Below are positions 1 to 27,300 of a stretch of 64,000 nucleotides of DNA, piece after piece. Source of the DNA: Saccostrea cucullata (Eukaryota); the NCBI RefSeq assembly GCF_032062105.1, contig NW_026929500.1, positions 1 to 64,000 on the forward strand. Direction: 5' to 3'. The position numbers are program-made. Every line of letters starts with the position of its first letter. Positions within the stretch are counted from its first letter, which is position 1.

Positions 1-3000
1 GATCATGAGATACGAATCGGCCGAGTGATCATTATAGGTGACGGAATTATCCGAGATTTGCCGAATGGCTAATGATTCACTTCTGTGGAAAAGAAAAATG
101 TTTTCATTGGTTGTCGTCCTAATGATAACGTCACGATTGCTAGGCTGTGTGATGTGTTTTGGTTACAGCTCATAGTTTCAGCATCAGTTGTTGAGATAAG
201 ACGTGATTTTCGCTAAGCGAAGATTTTCTGGAATTTTTGATTACAAACAATAGATACAGCTACAGAAATGAACAGTCAGAGTCATAAAAGGGTAATGACC
301 ATATTTGTGTATTTTTGTGAGGAAAATTTAAAATGCCTGTTGCTAGGGAGGGAAAATTTAAAATCGCAAACATGAGACAGCAGTCTATAAGTATTTACAA
401 ACTTATATATATATATACAAACGTATTTGAAGGATTTATCTTTGGTCTTTTGAATATTTTTACCATTACAACCCTTAGTAAAGTAATAACATGAGATTAA
501 TAAAGTTTAGAATACTGAATATTGCTTAAGTTCCGAAGAAAATTCGTCACTTTGCACCCTTTTGCGGGATTCTAAACAAAGTGGAATGAATAAATTAGGG
601 ACCTAGAGTAGAAAAATGAGAACTGCATTAATCAAATTGCAGTGTAATTTCATGTGCAGAAAATTCCAAAAATATAGTGAGTATAATACAATGAAAGATC
701 GTTGATTTTCTCACTATATAGGCCTAGAGACTAGGATTTCAAATTAGGGCCAATCTGAGAAAAAAATGTAGTAAGCAACATTTTCAGACCGACATATCGT
801 TTCTAATTCTTACTCAACAGTTATTATCAGAATTTTTTTCTCGTAATTAGCAAAATAAATCCATATTATTTGGTAGCCTTGAATGATTTCTAAAGGTCTT
901 TACCAAGGGAGCTCATAACAACCAGCAAGTTGAGTTGCTTCCCTTTAACCATTAAAATCAATATTGTGCCAACAAAACAATACAAGAAGTTTTTCTTTTT
1001 CAAATTCATATGAAAACTTATTCCCGGGAGGGGGGGGGGGGTTCATCATTGAAAAGAAATGCCTGTATTTTTAGATCTGGAAATTAATCTGATTTATTTG
1101 ATTATTTTAGTTTATATTGCCTTTTTATCATATCATAATTTTCAAACTCTGTGAAATTAAGGATGGAAAACTAAATTCTTTTGAGTCCTTTAATTAAGTG
1201 TTTCTGAATCGTTTATTTTTTCACATAATTTTAAAAGATAGGAACAGCAATATTTTTAAAATAACACCATCTGACAAACTTTTTTTAGAGAGGGGAATAT
1301 AATAGGCAAGAAGGCTAACATGTAGCTATTGATTAAAAAAAATACAATGAACATGTTGAGAGCGTACAGAAAATTGTAATTTTTCTTTAGTATGTTATTC
1401 CAGTTAACCAACATTCCAGGTTTCATCATGGTCGGCATAGCCACAGGTGATCGCATCAGCTGTGGGTATGTGACGATGAGGTTGGGAACTTCCGCATCGC
1501 ACAAAGGACATATTAACCTCCCCCCACCCCACCCCCCAAGTATGTCACGAGACTCTCCCCAACCCTGTTACCAGGGGATAATAATTATGTAATATTACAC
1601 TCTTTAGAATACCAGATCATATTAGGAGACAAGCATTTATGTTGTGATCCGGGGGGTGCTTTTTCTTTCAGTCAATCAGTCAATTCGGAGGCCCATTTAT
1701 GAATTTTATTTTAAAGATATTTTTAATATACTAATTTGTCGTTATAATGAATTAAATTCGTTAAAAACATTTTCAAATTCGTTAATAATGAATTTAATCT
1801 GTTATGAAAAACAACAACAACAAAAACAACATTTTTTTCTTTATCGCTTGCTAAACTAGAATTTTGTTTGACTGCCCCCACCCCTAACTTAAAATATGTA
1901 AGAAATTTTCTTAAAAATTGTGTTCATTATTGCTCAAACAATTCATTTTCTGTCATTTCAGAAGGAGAGTGGATGTTCAGTTCCAACCCGGAAGCTGCCT
2001 GAGTATTTACAAGAGGCTGGGAGTGGACATCTTGACCACGCCCACCACTTCCGGGAGAGATGTGGAGGTCTCAGTTTTGTTTTATATGTAATAAACATTG
2101 GTATAAAACGATGTAAGTTAATTTAAGGTCTTAATCTATTTTTTCTCAAATCTTTTTCTTTCTTCTATCAACTTTTATCTTTTCCATTAGTCCACGTTTT
2201 CATTCATATTTGTCTGCTTATATTTATAATATATGAAATTACAATTAAATATTTAAATTCATTGCAGGTTGGGCCACCAAGAAAGCGTTATATTCAGGCT
2301 TCCAATCAAGCAGTATTTCAAAACACAGGACCCAATCGTACAAGTGGCAGAGTGGTGACAAATGGGGTACGTTACAGAGAATTAATGGTACCCATATAGA
2401 CAATTGATAATTAATATTGATATACTTTTTTGCATGTAGCTAGCAACCCCTTTTAAAAATGCTAATTCTTTTTTTAAGTCAGATTTAAGTACGTTTCTCA
2501 TCCTGATATACCGGTAAACACACTCTAATTCAGACAAATTAATAGAATTAGAAAAGTATATTCAAGGAAACATTTTTTTTTTCAGGTGGCAAAACCTCTG
2601 TTGAGCAATGAACAAATACAACAATTCATAACGTCCACAGTTCTTCCTAGTGGTCGCTCAGTCACCAGCACTGAGACAGTGAACCCTAATGTCACCAATT
2701 GTACTGTGTATCCTTCTCAACCTGGGACTAGGATACAACAACAGGTATGTTTTAGGTTTAGGTCTGGAACTAGAATGTACATAATGTACCGTAAATTGAT
2801 TTGTTTAGGAGGTTGGTTTTTACATCTTGAAATACATCACAATTGTCCCTCTGTATGCCAGTCATTCTGGGATTGACAACGAATGCTTATGATCTAAGAA
2901 TAAGTCCTTACCTTTATTCAAGGTTACTAAGGTATTGCAAGGTCACTTGCAAGATGCATTATTAAATCAAATTCATTACAGAATATATTCGATGTTGTTA

Positions 3001-24300: not shown

Positions 24301-27300
24301 TAGGGGTTCTAGTGCTAGAGGCAAGGCTAAATCAAAGTAGGTAGTGAAAATGCATTATTTCTCTGAAAATATTCTCTGCTCCTGGGTATTAAATAAACCA
24401 ACTAAGTAGTTAGTTATGATGAGCAAGAGTGCTTCTACCAAAATTGTGAATTTTATGGCCCCATCAGGAGTTTGGTGTTTGGACTATTGATTATATACAG
24501 TGAAAATACATGATTTCTTTGAAAATTATCTGCCCCTGGATATTAAATAAACTAACTAAGTGCATAGTTATGATATGCAAGAGTGCCTCTATCAAAATTG
24601 TGAATTTTTTGGCCCCAGGGTTAGGAGTTCTGGTGTTAGGGCGGGGCTCTGTTGATTATATAGTAAAAATACATGAATTCTTTGATAATCTTCTTCTCTG
24701 CTTAGATATTAAATAAAAATAAGTGCATAGTTATGATGAGCATGAGTGCCTTACCAAAATTGTGAATTTTATGGCCCCAGGGTCAGGGTTTCTGGTGTTA
24801 GGGCAGGGGTCTAGTCTTCATATAGTGAAAATACACAAATTCTTTGAAAATCTTCTTCTATGCTCCTAGGTATTAAATAAACTAACTAAGTGCATAGTTA
24901 TGATGAGCAAGAGTGCCTCTACCAAAATTGTGAATTTTATGGTCCCTGGGTCAAGGCTTCTCTTGTAGGGGGGCTCTATAGATTATATAGTAAAAATACA
25001 TGGATTCTTTGAAAATCTTCTTCTCTGCTCCTAGTTATTAAATAAACTAACGAAGTGCATAGTTAAGATGAGCAAGAGTGCTTTTACTAAAATTGTGAAT
25101 TTTATGGTCCCAGGGTCAGGGGTTCAGGTGTTAGGGTGGGGCTCTATTGATTATATAGTAAACATACATGAATTCTTTGAAAATCTTCTTCTCTGCTCCT
25201 AGGTATTAAATAAACGAACTAAGTACATAGTTATGATGAGCAAGAGTGCTTTTACCAAAATTGTGAATTTTATGGTCCCAGGAAGGGGTTCTGGCGTGTG
25301 GGGGGGGGGGGGGGCTCGGTTGATTATATAGTGAATATACATTAAATCTTTGAAAATTTTCTTCTGTGTCTCTGGGTATGAAGCAGATGAACTACCTAAA
25401 TAGTTATGATGAGCAAGGGCCCTATTTTTTTTAAAAATTTTGAATTTCAAGGCCCCAGGGTCAGGGGTGTACACCTTAGCTTTATATACTAATGAATGAA
25501 TTGTTTGAAATCTGCTCCTTTGTATTTATAAAACATTTATTTATTTTTTGATAGGCAATTTTAACGGTGCCTTTTTAAAATTTGTGCAATGTGTGGACCT
25601 AGGGTCAGGGGTTTATTTCACAGTGTTAGGGGCACTACTGATTATTGCTGAATATTACTGATTAGTTGGAATGCATTTTTGTTCCCCTACCTTGCGTATG
25701 GGATTCAACACTGCGAGGTGATCATGAATAATCCATGGATTTCCTTGAATTTTTCATGAATTTTATTCATTAAATGTTCATGAAGATCCTATGAACTTAT
25801 TATTGGGCATATTTAAATCAATAAACCAAGCTAAGCAACTGTAGTGTATTGTTATGATGATCAATGGTGCCTCTTTCAAAATTGTGAATGCCATATAGCA
25901 TCTGGCTTAAAACATGAATCAAATTCAATAACTGGAAAGTTGTTGCAGAATGCTCAGGTGACTTGTTGCAGAATGCTCAGGTGACCAATAAGGCCCATGG
26001 GCCTCTTGTTGTAAATACAAGTTACTTTATGAAATATTTTTTTTTAAAAATGCATTGTTCTGGGACAACCCTCGTACTGTTGAATACACATTGAGCTTTG
26101 TTATTAATATATATACATAATCAATTTACAAAATTGATGAAATATTAACTAAACATTATGCAATATTTTTACAGACACTCCCAGAGGACTACAGACCTGT
26201 GGTTAACACATCCCTGTTACTTGATGACTTGTCACCTGACAGTGTTACTCTGTTGGAAGCTGACAGTTTCTATGGACCAGAGATTCTCGTCACTTCTGGA
26301 TCTCATTGCTTTGTGGCCTCTGTACCTTTCTTTTGATTGGACAACACAGACTACTGATACTGCTGGAGATGTTGCTGATATTCAGTGATGGGACTTTATT
26401 AGTGAACCATAGTGAACTTTAACCACAGTCTTTCATTGCCGTTAAATTTCTGCAATTTTCTTTTTGATTGATTTTTATTTCTGGATAGAACTTTTGACTA
26501 TTTTTATACTTTCTTAGCAGACATGGATTATAGAATTTCCATGATATTCGTTAAAACTTTTAGATAAGAAGTTGAACATATGAGCTATTATTTCAGTATC
26601 ATAATTATTCATTACTACGTGCCAAATGATTGATTTACGTTTATGGTTTTTTTAATAACTGCATGTTTAAAAACACTGTTGATAATACTTATTTTTACTA
26701 ATAAAATTGCATGCTTAAACATTTTGGTGTGTTTTATGTTGTATTCACTACTTCCATCGGACAATACACAAATAACTAAAAACATCAGGGGTAACCTGCG
26801 TTTATAAAACATTAATTGTAACGGATCCAAAGTGGTATAGAACTACACAAAATGCGATAATACAAAAAAAAAAAAGCTGTTTTGTAAAATAAGAGAGAGA
26901 GAGAGAAAGAAAAAGGGAAGTGTTCAACAAAGAATTGTTTGGTTGCCCGACCTCAATATTCAGTTTAAAAATCACTATCAGGGCCATCCCTCTCACCTTA
27001 GCCTTCTTGTACTTGGAAGATTATTTGATGCACAAAAATTTTATTTTATTAATCTTCTTTCATTGAAAACTCATCCAGATCATTCTCTGATTTATTTGTC
27101 CTTTCCATTACATTACAGTACATTACATTACAGTATAGTTATCGAAGATGAATGATTTCTCCCAATAGAATACAAATTAATAGAGTCTTGTTCAGAAAAA
27201 GTCTTACCAAACTGTTATATTTGTTGCAGACATGCAGCAAGTTTGCAACAAACATTTTTTTTTTTCAGGAGAACATTTTTTCTTGTTCACAGATGCTTGC

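What the first reader, a model, noticed from the sequence alone, without database searches (positions are those of the whole stretch)
268..26336. Tandem pair of unrecognised genes in which all ten introns are phase 0
Seen: every copy 2 exon is a multiple of 3 (30, 108, 93, 159, 228, 282, 285, 105, 222, 102, 162), and so is every copy 1 exon apart from the exon 2 issue. Any internal exon can therefore be skipped in frame. The protein is mostly low-complexity, with basic patches (PPRKR, KSKPKKSKEK) and short conserved islands. Each copy has one lesion (exon 2 indels; exon 9 transposon) that single-exon skipping would bypass. Inference: a modular, lesion-tolerant nuclear scaffold family.
Basis: partly seen in the sequence, partly recalled or inferred. 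Interest (0 to 1): 0.75.

Follow-up and report, generated by a model that had tools for sequence, protein, structure and literature searches.

The report
Two damaged oyster orphan gene copies
Two neighbouring copies of an oyster-only gene for a floppy, probably nuclear protein, each recently broken in one exon; every intron does fall between codons, but that layout is fairly ordinary for genes of disordered proteins.

Summary
The window is oyster DNA: exon 6 of copy 2 is 100% identical to Saccostrea cucullata LOC134281023. It carries a tandem pair of 11-exon genes, 268-11694 and 15602-26336. All 10 coding introns of each copy are GT-AG and phase 0. Copy 1 exon 2 is 106 nt, which puts a stop codon in exon 4. 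Copy 2 exon 9 carries a 2.4-kb insertion with inverted ends.

The genes are not unannotated. RefSeq calls them "uncharacterized", and models copy 2 as two truncated proteins rather than an exon-skipped one.

Every named member of the family comes from an oyster genus: Saccostrea, Crassostrea/Magallana or Ostrea. A profile found only 15 of 1.84 billion representative proteins. There is no Pfam or PDB relative.

AlphaFold2 puts 470 of 598 residues below pLDDT 50, with three short ordered islands.

"Modular" has some evolutionary support. "Nuclear" rests only on basic patches that look like nuclear import signals. "Lesion-tolerant scaffold" has no support.

By my estimate from published human figures, all-phase-0 has roughly a 1% chance for a disordered-protein gene of this size. 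The two copies are one inherited observation.

Verdict: young, damaged members of an undescribed oyster orphan family. Modest interest.

The parts
268..291 (+). Copy 1 exon 1 (24 nt, MNSQSHKR), start codon at 268
   Evidence: There are in-frame stops upstream. It matches the MNSQSYKR start of P0005, P0006 and P0007.
1962..2067 (+). Copy 1 exon 2, 106 nt: the frame-breaking lesion (+1, -2, -1 indels relative to copy 2)
   Evidence: Alignment, three-frame reading, exon table.
2268..2366 (+). Copy 1 exon 3 (99 nt, contains PPRKR)
2586..2744 (+). Copy 1 exon 4 (159 nt, the LLSNEQIQQFITSTV island). If exon 2 is included, a premature stop falls at 2609-2611.
5245..5499 (+). Copy 1 exon 5 (255 nt)
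9109..9384 (+). Copy 1 exon 6 (276 nt)
9496..9789 (+). Copy 1 exon 7 (294 nt, contains KSKPKKSKEK)
9885..9989 (+). Copy 1 exon 8 (105 nt, the KRIVVPPK...YPPYVARIMRILNRQKQ island)
10794..11054 (+). Copy 1 exon 9 (261 nt, intact; holds a 33-nt tandem repeat at 10930-10997)
11199..11300 (+). Copy 1 exon 10 (102 nt)
11533..11694 (+). Copy 1 exon 11 (162 nt including the stop codon; C-terminal island)
15602..15631 (+). Copy 2 exon 1 (30 nt, MNSQTLSYKR)
   Evidence: There are in-frame stops upstream.
16920..16931 (+). Alternative first coding exon (MVSR) used by RefSeq model P0001; it also ends in phase 0
   Evidence: and the P0001 sequence.
17127..17234 (+). Copy 2 exon 2 (108 nt)
   Evidence: 100% match to P0001.
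17497..17589 (+). Copy 2 exon 3 (93 nt, PPRKR)
17769..17927 (+). Copy 2 exon 4 (159 nt)
18680..18907 (+). Copy 2 exon 5 (228 nt)
19128..19409 (+). Copy 2 exon 6 (282 nt)
19520..19804 (+). Copy 2 exon 7 (285 nt)
19906..20010 (+). Copy 2 exon 8 (105 nt)
20117..20228 (+). Copy 2 exon 9, 5' part (112 nt) up to the insertion
20229..22626 (.). Insertion splitting copy 2 exon 9. It is 2,398 nt long, with 17-nt inverted ends (20229-20245 and 22610-22626, 16 of 17 matching) and sub-terminal short repeats. No open frame of 80 residues or more lies wholly inside it, and AG sits on both flanks. The first in-frame stop of the exon 9 frame is at 20354-20356.
   Evidence: (pair I20). The insertion is absent from copy 1 and from the relatives' proteins.
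22480..22491 (+). ATG exon (MPQT) inside the insertion, used by public model P0017 and spliced to 22625
22627..22738 (+). Copy 2 exon 9, 3' part (112 nt; the P0017 model enters 2 nt earlier, at 22625)
22835..22936 (+). Copy 2 exon 10 (102 nt)
26175..26336 (+). Copy 2 exon 11 (162 nt including the stop codon)

Best explanation
**What it is.** This is a tandem pair of paralogues from a gene family in which every named member comes from an oyster genus (Saccostrea, Crassostrea/Magallana, Ostrea). The family is fast-evolving and has not been described.

**The protein.** Family members encode basic proteins of about 450-600 residues that are almost wholly disordered. They have no signal-peptide-like start. 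I infer that they act in the nucleus through a handful of short binding motifs strung on variable linkers:
- an N-terminal KRKR plus the GVDILTTPTTSG island;
- the helix LLSNEQIQQFITSTV;
- WSLxPQSVP...EAQTK;
- the helix in KRIVVPPK...YPPYVARIMRILNRQKQ;
- a C-terminal hairpin in LLEADSFYGPEILVTSGSHCF..PFF.

**The intron pattern.** Both copies have all ten coding introns in phase 0 because both inherit one ancestral gene structure. That layout is common in genes of disordered proteins. It allows in-frame gain and loss of exon blocks over evolutionary time.

**State of the two copies here.** The copies arose within the S. cucullata lineage and were under purifying selection for most of the time since. 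Each has recently been hit once:
- Copy 1 has a +1 shift at the start of exon 2, which gives a stop in exon 4.
- Copy 2 has a 2.4-kb non-autonomous inverted-repeat element inside exon 9, which gives a stop 42 codons into the element.

They are therefore most likely young pseudogenes or producers of truncated proteins in a birth-and-death family. They are probably not copies kept alive by exon skipping.

**Shown versus inferred.** Shown: the structure, the phases, the lesions, the taxonomic range of the named members, the disorder and the selection pattern. Inferred: nuclear location, motif-binding function, and loss of function.
For: **Structure and phases:**. The exon joins agree with RefSeq models of relatives.

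**Organism and annotation:**. Of 16 hits, 7 are S. cucullata, 8 are S. echinata and 1 is O. edulis, and all are named "uncharacterized". One search gave 12 hits: 10 named ones from C./M. gigas, C. angulata, C. virginica and O. edulis, plus 2 unnamed.

**Restricted range:** the profile search found 15 proteins at E<=1e-3 among 1,835,955,588 representatives.

**No described family**
- Pfam found nothing at or near cut-off for 10 exon peptides or 10 whole public proteins.
- The PDB profile search gave a best E of 0.1.

**Disorder**
- AlphaFold2 mean pLDDT is 45.8, and 470 of 598 residues are below 50. The only ordered elements are H85-94, H421-435 and the hairpin 581-594.
- The Atlas model of P0005 has mean pLDDT 0.31.
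- S+T+Q+P+N make up 41-42% of P0005 and P0006, with K+R at 11% against D+E at 8.7%.

**Selection**
- Summed over exons, dS is 0.274, dN is 0.164 and omega is 0.60. Exon 11 has omega 0.06 (9 synonymous against 2 non-synonymous changes), exon 5 has 0.24 and exon 8 has 0.44.
- At positions invariant in other Saccostrea members, copy 1 differs at 22 of 224 and copy 2 at 22 of 225. There are 0-1 differences in the islands of exons 2, 4, 8 and 11.

**Lesions:**

**RefSeq truncates rather than skips:** P0001 is exons 2-9a plus read-through at 100% identity. P0017 starts inside the insertion.

**Many damaged or partial family models:**. The N-terminus of P0002 contains exon 3 read in the same shifted frame as copy 1.

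**Lineage-specific expansion:** the S. cucullata copies form one clade (support 86/92). Copy 2 groups with the copy-1-like pair at 96/98.

**Symmetric exons in disordered-protein genes:** PMC3632108, abstract and passages read.
Against: - No transcript, protein or localisation data were available, so loss of function is an inference.
- Both copies keep about 90% of family-invariant residues and intact splice sites. That fits very recent damage, but it fits continued use equally well.
- Copy 2 could still yield a 503-residue protein with four of the five islands (P0001).
- The pairwise omega of 0.60 cannot be assigned to either lineage.
- The human phase statistics may not carry over to oysters.
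- My test of whether composition favours phase-0 AG|G sites was mixed: 57-63% in copy 1 and 39-44% in copy 2. I therefore have no mechanistic reason for the all-phase-0 pattern beyond inheritance and the general bias.
- The nuclear assignment rests on motif reading only.
Confidence: 0.6

Rival explanations
1. The all-phase-0 layout works as a buffer: both copies stay functional because the spliceosome skips the damaged exon (exon 2 in copy 1, exon 9 in copy 2), giving in-frame proteins that lack one module.
For: - Skipping is arithmetically in frame, and every other exon is open.
- Both copies keep their splice sites and about 90% of invariant residues.
- Exon 11 has omega 0.06.
- Exon 9 is among the least conserved parts (omega about 1-1.4), so losing it might be tolerated.
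Against: - No isoform evidence was available.
- The public models of copy 2 read through into the insertion (P0001) or start inside it (P0017). Neither joins exon 8 to exon 10.
- Skipping exon 2 would remove a conserved island: 22 of 36 columns are invariant in the relatives. It would also remove half of the KRKR patch.
- In-frame skipping follows automatically from the phases, so it adds no independent support.
- Good preservation is equally expected if the lesions are simply young.
Confidence: 0.15
2. Copy 2 is being rescued by partial intronisation of the insertion. An in-frame GT inside the left end of the element would be spliced to the AG inside its right inverted end at 22624|22625. This would create an eleventh phase-0 intron and a full-length protein with a short element-derived insert.
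For: - The acceptor at 22625 is used by public model P0017 and is in phase 0.
- Three in-frame GT sites lie before the first stop: 20258 (CAA|GTTTGC), 20312 (ACA|GTATGC) and 20330 (GCA|GTAAAT).
Against: - This is purely arithmetic, with no junction evidence.
- RefSeq did not join the two halves.
- The element does not begin with GT, so it cannot be removed exactly.
- In P0017 the donor paired with this acceptor is a different one, at 22491|22492.
Confidence: 0.08
3. The exon 2 lesion of copy 1 is an assembly error, and copy 1 is really intact.
For: One of the three indels is an extra G in a short G run, GAAGGAG against GAAGAG.
Against: - There are three separate indels, and two of them are not in homopolymers.
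- A RefSeq model at another locus (P0002, LOC134272469) reads exon 3 in the same shifted frame at 31 of 32 residues. This suggests the same kind of lesion in the copy-1-like lineage.
Confidence: 0.05
4. These are not real genes. They would be chance open frames, or repeat-derived sequence that an annotation pipeline has over-read.
For: - The family has no known domain and no named member.
- Many of its models are partial or contrived.
- The region is rich in repeats.
Against: - Eleven collinear exons with GT-AG borders are shared by the two copies, while the introns have diverged or are unalignable.
- The islands are conserved across three oyster genera.
- There is a strong excess of synonymous change in exon 11.
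- The same architecture appears in intact 587-599-residue models in two Saccostrea species.
Confidence: 0.03

Closest known systems
Genes of mostly disordered proteins assembled from symmetric exons (Schad, Kalmar and Tompa 2013, PMC3632108; abstract and passages read)
   Same: The protein is mostly disordered and all 9 internal coding exons are symmetric (0,0). There is an in-frame internal duplication of an exon block in a relative (P0016). Short motifs sit inside disordered exons.
   Different: That work is a human genome-wide statistic, not a family. Nothing here shows exon exchange with other genes. No alternative splicing was observed.
Vertebrate secretory calcium-binding phosphoprotein genes (enamel, bone and dentin cluster). 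They are cited as an example in PMC3632108 (passage). That all their introns are phase 0 is my recollection, not a call result.
   Same: Tandemly clustered, fast-evolving, lineage-restricted and disordered proteins built from symmetric exons, diversifying by exon duplication.
   Different: Those proteins are secreted, with a signal peptide and SXE phosphorylation motifs. The oyster proteins start MNSQSYKRKR, with no hydrophobic leader (read by eye), and there is no sequence similarity.
RefSeq uncharacterized oyster loci: LOC134281023, LOC134267964 and LOC134267950 (S. cucullata), LOC133205196 (S. echinata), LOC117688915 (C. gigas), LOC128178200 (C. angulata), LOC111107382 (C. virginica) and LOC125680019 (O. 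edulis)
   Same: Copy 2 is LOC134281023 itself: exons 2-9a match at 100%. The others share the five islands and, where full length, the same order.
   Different: Both copies in the window are damaged. Intact members (P0005, 598 residues; P0006, 587 residues) show the full 11-exon product. No function is recorded for any of them, and none of the six locus or UniProt identifiers searched occurs in the paper library.
Long disordered vertebrate nuclear proteins: an ARID2 fragment, NEXMIF, RESF1 and an RFX5-N-like cluster
   Same: These are the nearest language-model neighbours of P0005 and P0018.
   Different: The scores are 0.76-0.79, which the tool says shuffled proteins reach about a third of the time. 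There is no alignment and no shared Pfam family. This is a lead to the kind of protein only, not homology.

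Membership tests
Oyster orphan family (RefSeq 'uncharacterized' loci listed under Closest known systems) | Significant full-length sequence similarity to the family's members | tested here: met
   Exon 6 of copy 2 gives E 7.7e-51 and 100% identity to P0001. tblastn of P0005, P0001 and P0003 hits every exon of both copies.
Oyster orphan family (RefSeq 'uncharacterized' loci listed under Closest known systems) | The five conserved islands in the same order (N-terminal island, LLSNEQIQQFI helix, WSLxPQ...EAQT, KRIVVPPK...YPPYVxRIMRIL, C-terminal FYGPEILV...PFF) | tested here: met
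   All five are present in copy 2 and four are intact in copy 1, where the exon 2 island is partly scrambled. There are 0-1 differences at invariant positions in exons 2, 4, 8 and 11.
Any family described in Pfam or with a solved structure | A profile match at or above the curated cut-off, or a significant match to a PDB sequence | tested here: not met
   Pfam: no family reached its cut-off for 10 exon peptides or 10 whole family proteins (the best was 17.8 bits against a cut-off of 23). PDB: the best E was 0.1.
Genes of mostly disordered proteins built of symmetric exons (PMC3632108) | More than 70% of the protein predicted disordered | tested here: met
   Using low AlphaFold2 confidence as a proxy: 470 of 598 residues (79%) of P0005 are below pLDDT 50. 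The Atlas model has mean pLDDT 0.31. No dedicated disorder predictor was run.
Genes of mostly disordered proteins built of symmetric exons (PMC3632108) | [quoted passage not shown] | tested here: met
   Copy 2: 9 of 9 internal exons are (0,0), once the insertion is removed from exon 9. Copy 1: 8 of 9, with exon 2 being 106 nt.
Secreted disordered matrix proteins (SCPP-like, or shell-matrix-like) | N-terminal signal peptide | tested here: not met
   The N-termini read MNSQSHKR / MNSQTLSYKR|KRVDVQ, polar and basic with no hydrophobic run. This was read by eye; no signal-peptide predictor was available.
Transposon-derived introns ('introner'-type) | The element ends, or the duplicated target, supply GT...AG so that the whole insertion is spliced out exactly | tested here: not met
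   The element starts CCCTTACC after ...CAAG, so there is no GT at its 5' border. Only partial, inexact removal is arithmetically possible.
Nuclear proteins | Shown nuclear localisation, or a validated import signal | not testable with these tools
   Only basic patches that look like import signals were seen: KRKR at the exon 1/2 join, PPRKR, and the KTKTKKSKKK / KSKPKKSKEK patch.

The most novel reading that the evidence does not exclude
The fully symmetric phase-0 layout is under selection in this oyster family because it lets copies survive hits from the very active repeat load of oyster genomes. On this reading the two damaged copies are still expressed as in-frame isoforms. Copy 1 would skip exon 2. 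Copy 2 would skip exon 9, or would splice out most of the insertion through an in-frame GT at 20258, 20312 or 20330 and the AG in the element's right end at 22625, so creating a new phase-0 intron. The window would then catch, in one place, both exon-skipping rescue and the birth of an intron from a transposon in an animal gene.
Probability: 0.1. Interest if true: 0.55.

Novelty: new member of a known kind. Interest (0 to 1): 0.25.

Why it matters
If the main reading is right, this is a tidy but ordinary example. It shows a lineage-restricted, disordered-protein gene family evolving by tandem duplication, patchy homogenisation, transposon hits and decay, on a gene structure that allows in-frame exon gain and loss.

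Its practical value lies in annotation:
- The RefSeq models LOC134281023 and the 129-residue model P0017 are two halves of one gene split by an insertion.
- Several family models are contrived around lesions.
- The family could be given a profile and a name.

It would matter more if transcripts showed exon-skipping rescue or intronisation of the insertion. That would give a natural test case for how symmetric exon structure buffers mutation.

Tried and rejected
**Searches that found no described relative**
- Pfam on exon peptides and on whole family proteins found nothing at cut-off.
- A family profile against PDB sequences gave only prefoldin subunit 2, at E 0.1 and 0.25, which I rejected as noise.
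- The two ESM Atlas searches scored 0.76-0.79, at chance level by the tool's own figures. I kept them only as a hint of the kind of protein.
- I did not run fold search, because a model with mean pLDDT 45.8 would give meaningless matches.
- I did not run complex prediction, because I make no binding claim.

**Composition as an explanation for phase 0**
- AG|G sites by phase inside the exons were 57-63% phase 0 in copy 1 and 39-44% in copy 2. The result is mixed, so I did not adopt this as the explanation.

**Classifying the exon 9 insertion**
- It has 17-nt inverted ends, sub-terminal short repeats and no open frame of 80 residues or more wholly inside it. The only shared flank is AG; no longer target duplication was found.
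- No second copy is in the window. Its superfamily is left undetermined.

**Other negative results**
- Rfam at gathering cut-offs gave 0 matches and the tRNA scan gave 0 genes across the whole window.
- A paper search for six locus or UniProt identifiers of family members found 0 papers.
The origin of P0019-P0028 is therefore unknown.

**What could not be checked**
- The supplementary tables of PMC3632108, which may list fully symmetric genes, were closed.

**The joined step**
Window sequence was searched exon by exon. Whole-length searches used public models returned by the tools.

Full report
**What the window is**

The window has no N and is 34% G+C. Exon 6 of the second gene copy is 100% identical to Saccostrea cucullata "uncharacterized protein LOC134281023" (P0001). 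Exons 2-9 of that model map onto the window at 100% identity, or at 97-99% where the match runs a few residues past the exon ends. This is hooded-oyster DNA, not human.

The neighbours are ordinary animal genes:
- a TDP-43 homologue on the minus strand (TDP-43_N, E 2.2e-34, with an RRM; 32330-36193);
- an exon with a phosphoribosyltransferase match just below the Pfam cut-off (44895-45224);
- a coiled-coil gene (50572-53150).

There are no Rfam matches at gathering cut-offs and no tRNA genes in the window.

**The observation**

Self-BLASTN shows 8 collinear blocks between about 102-12068 and about 15436-26743. Eight of the nine were found at positions that line up with copy 1, and the 222-nt length was not found.

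| Exon | Copy 2 | Copy 1 |
|---|---|---|
| 1 | 15602-15631 | 268-291 |
| 2 | 17127-17234 | 1962-2067 |
| 3 | 17497-17589 | 2268-2366 |
| 4 | 17769-17927 | 2586-2744 |
| 5 | 18680-18907 | 5245-5499 |
| 6 | 19128-19409 | 9109-9384 |
| 7 | 19520-19804 | 9496-9789 |
| 8 | 19906-20010 | 9885-9989 |
| 9 | 20117-20228 plus 22627-22738 | 10794-11054 |
| 10 | 22835-22936 | 11199-11300 |
| 11 | 26175-26336 | 11533-11694 |

The copy 2 coordinates are and the copy 1 coordinates.

All donors are GT and all acceptors are AG. Ten of 11 exon lengths in each copy are multiples of three as they stand. Copy 2 exon 9 becomes 222 nt once 2,400 nt are taken out.

The joins are those of RefSeq models of intact relatives. 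P0005 (598 residues) and P0006 (587 residues) begin MNSQSYKR|KRVDVQ and end ...SHCFV.SVPFF. P0005 maps exon by exon with abutting residue numbers. In-frame stops lie just upstream of both start codons.

**The lesions**

Copy 1:
- Exon 2 differs from copy 2 by +1, -2 and -1 indels.
- The last two indels scramble seven residues and cancel out. The +1 shift near the acceptor breaks the frame.
- I tracked the frame exon by exon, by carry-over length only. The first stop then falls at 2609-2611 in exon 4.

Copy 2:
- Exon 9 is interrupted at 20229-22626 by an element with 17-nt inverted ends (16 of 17 matching) and sub-terminal short repeats. No open frame of 80 residues or more lies wholly inside it, and AG sits on both flanks.
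- The element is missing from copy 1 and from the relatives' proteins.
- The exon 9 frame runs 42 codons into the element, to a stop at 20354-20356.

Public models:
- P0001 (503 residues) is an alternative first exon MVSR (16920-16931) plus exons 2-9a and the read-through.
- P0017 (129 residues) starts at an ATG inside the element (22480-22491). It splices to an AG in the element's right end (22625) and carries exons 9b, 10 and 11.
- So the pipeline that built the public models split the gene. It did not skip exon 9.

**What the protein is**

Window sequence was searched exon by exon. Whole-length searches used public proteins that the tools returned.

- Pfam finds nothing for 10 exon peptides or for 10 whole family proteins.
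- A profile of 14 family members, scored against 1,835,955,588 representative proteins, finds 15 at E<=1e-3.
- The word-index searches name the relatives: 7 S. cucullata, 8 S. echinata and 1 Ostrea edulis. A second search adds Crassostrea/Magallana gigas, C. angulata and C. virginica. All are "uncharacterized".
- The six identifiers I searched occur in no paper of the library.
- No PDB sequence matches.
- AlphaFold2 with a 31-row alignment gives mean pLDDT 45.8, and 470 of 598 residues are below 50.
- AlphaFold2 finds only three ordered elements: a helix at 85-94 (exon 4 island), a helix at 421-435 (exon 8 island) and a C-terminal hairpin at 581-594 (exon 11 island).
- The Atlas's own model of P0005 has mean pLDDT 0.31, and the nearest language-model clusters score below 0.8.
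- S+T+Q+P+N are 41-42% of P0005 and P0006, and K+R (11%) exceed D+E (8.7%).
- There is no hydrophobic N-terminus. The basic patches (KRKR across the exon 1/2 join, PPRKR and the lysine-rich patch in exon 7) look like nuclear import signals. That is a reading, not a test.

**History and selection**

In a maximum-likelihood tree of 14 family proteins the S. cucullata copies form one clade (support 86/92). Copy 2 groups with the copy-1-like pair (96/98). So the pair arose after the split from S. echinata, or has since been homogenised.

Nei-Gojobori counts were summed exon by exon and give dS 0.274, dN 0.164 and omega 0.60. The signal is very uneven:

| Exon | Omega | Note |
|---|---|---|
| 11 | 0.06 | |
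| 5 | 0.24 | |
| 8 | 0.44 | |
| 6 and 9 | about 1 or above | |
| 4 | 1.28 | dS is only 0.027, against 0.19-0.51 in most other exons, which suggests a conversion patch |

At positions invariant among other Saccostrea members, copy 1 differs at 22 of 224 and copy 2 at 22 of 225. There are 0-1 differences in the islands of exons 2, 4, 8 and 11. For that count I left out P0001, P0017, P0003 and P0002 (the window's own models or near-alleles) and P0007 (scrambled exon 8). Both copies were thus constrained for most of their separate history, and the lesions are young.

Many family models are partial or contrived. The N-terminus of P0002 contains exon 3 read in the same shifted frame as copy 1, at 31 of 32 residues. 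This fits a birth-and-death family.

**How unusual is all-phase-0?**

- With the human share of phase-0 introns (46.28%; PMC3632108, passage read), ten independent introns give 4.5e-4.
- Phases of neighbouring introns are not independent, however, and disordered proteins are enriched in (0,0) exons. That paper's Table 2 gives 35.72% (0,0), 11.22% (0,1) and 5.87% (0,2) for proteins more than 70% disordered.
- From those figures I estimate P(0 after 0) at about 0.68, and about 1.4% for ten in a row. The same estimate for ordered proteins is about 0.1%. This arithmetic is my own, and it uses human figures rather than oyster ones.
- The two copies inherit one structure and count once.
- A composition explanation (more AG|G sites in phase 0) gave mixed results.

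The pattern is real and somewhat uncommon. It is nonetheless the expected kind of structure for this kind of protein. [quoted passage not shown]

**The interpretation**

- "Modular" has evolutionary support. The O. edulis model P0016 repeats the exon 4 to exon 6 block in frame: two units start AKPLLSNEQIQQFIT and end QNYSAD[HQ]L. The C. virginica model P0037 couples the N-terminal islands to a different, repeat-rich tail.
- "Nuclear" is plausible but inferred.
- "Lesion-tolerant" and "scaffold" have no support. That skipping the damaged exon keeps the frame follows directly from the phases, and the public models do not skip.

My best reading (confidence 0.6) is that these are young pseudogenes or truncated-protein producers in an undescribed family whose named members are all from oysters. 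The encoded proteins are disordered, probably nuclear and built of short binding motifs.

The livelier alternatives cannot be excluded without transcript data:
- Exon-skipping rescue.
- Partial intronisation of the insertion, through in-frame GT sites at 20258, 20312 or 20330 and the AG at 22625.

**What stayed unchecked**

- The paper's supplementary tables, which were closed.
- Any expression evidence.

Noticed in passing
window 5936-8037, 23952-25964 and 60141-61746: Three copies of a repeat of about 2 kb built around a 168-bp satellite array (2.7, 6.3 and 4.7 units) with shared flanks. One sits in intron 5 of copy 1 and one in intron 10 of copy 2, so they are independent insertions after the duplication. 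The third lies far downstream. Pfam hits to its frames are noise.
   Followed up: partly
window 2564-2753 against 17750-17936 (exon 4 and its edges): This block is 94% identical between the copies, with dS of only 0.027, against 0.19-0.51 in most other exons. This points to a gene-conversion patch or to constraint at the nucleotide level. P0002 also looks like a mosaic of copy-1-like and copy-2-like stretches.
   Followed up: partly
window 102-364 against 15436-15705: The promoter and 5' leader are 86% identical between the copies. The codons just before the start (..TATE / ..VAE) resemble the ..KATE that precedes MNSYSSKR in the longer N-terminus annotated for C. gigas P0018. In Saccostrea, in-frame stops close that extension.
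   Followed up: partly
window 32330-36193, minus strand: A TDP-43 homologue: the N-terminal domain exon (TDP-43_N, E 2.2e-34) and an exon with an RRM plus a glycine-rich tail.
   Followed up: partly
window 44895-45224 (minus strand) and 50572-53150 (plus strand): An exon with a phosphoribosyltransferase match (24.2 bits, just under the 26.3 cut-off), which looks like adenine phosphoribosyltransferase by eye. Also a multi-exon coiled-coil gene with no Pfam family at cut-off.
   Followed up: no
window 62595-62903, plus strand: A short open frame with a sub-threshold RNase H match (22.7 bits against a 25.8 cut-off), probably a retroelement remnant.
   Followed up: no
window 12897-13387 (spacer between the two copies): A G+C-richer array of 54-nt and 83-nt units present in both orientations, so an inverted tandem array. 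There is no Pfam match to its frame.
   Followed up: no
window 10930-10997 (copy 1 exon 9): A 33-nt tandem repeat (2.1 copies) adds an in-frame KKATNTVDSSP / KKATDTMDSSP unit that the other family members lack. This accounts for part of the extra length of copy 1 exon 9, 261 nt against 222.
   Followed up: partly
public proteins P0016 (O. edulis) and P0037 (C. virginica): P0016 carries an in-frame internal duplication of the exon 4 to exon 6 block. P0037 keeps the N-terminal islands but continues into a different tail with repeated ..EIMGI.. units and a basic C-terminus.
   Followed up: partly
window 5517-5531: An ATG mini-exon (MFQKK, followed by GT) lies just after the exon 5 donor of copy 1. 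It matches the start of RefSeq model P0003 at a near-identical locus on another contig. That model is identical to copy 1 in exons 6-10 but differs at 5 of 54 residues in exon 11.
   Followed up: partly
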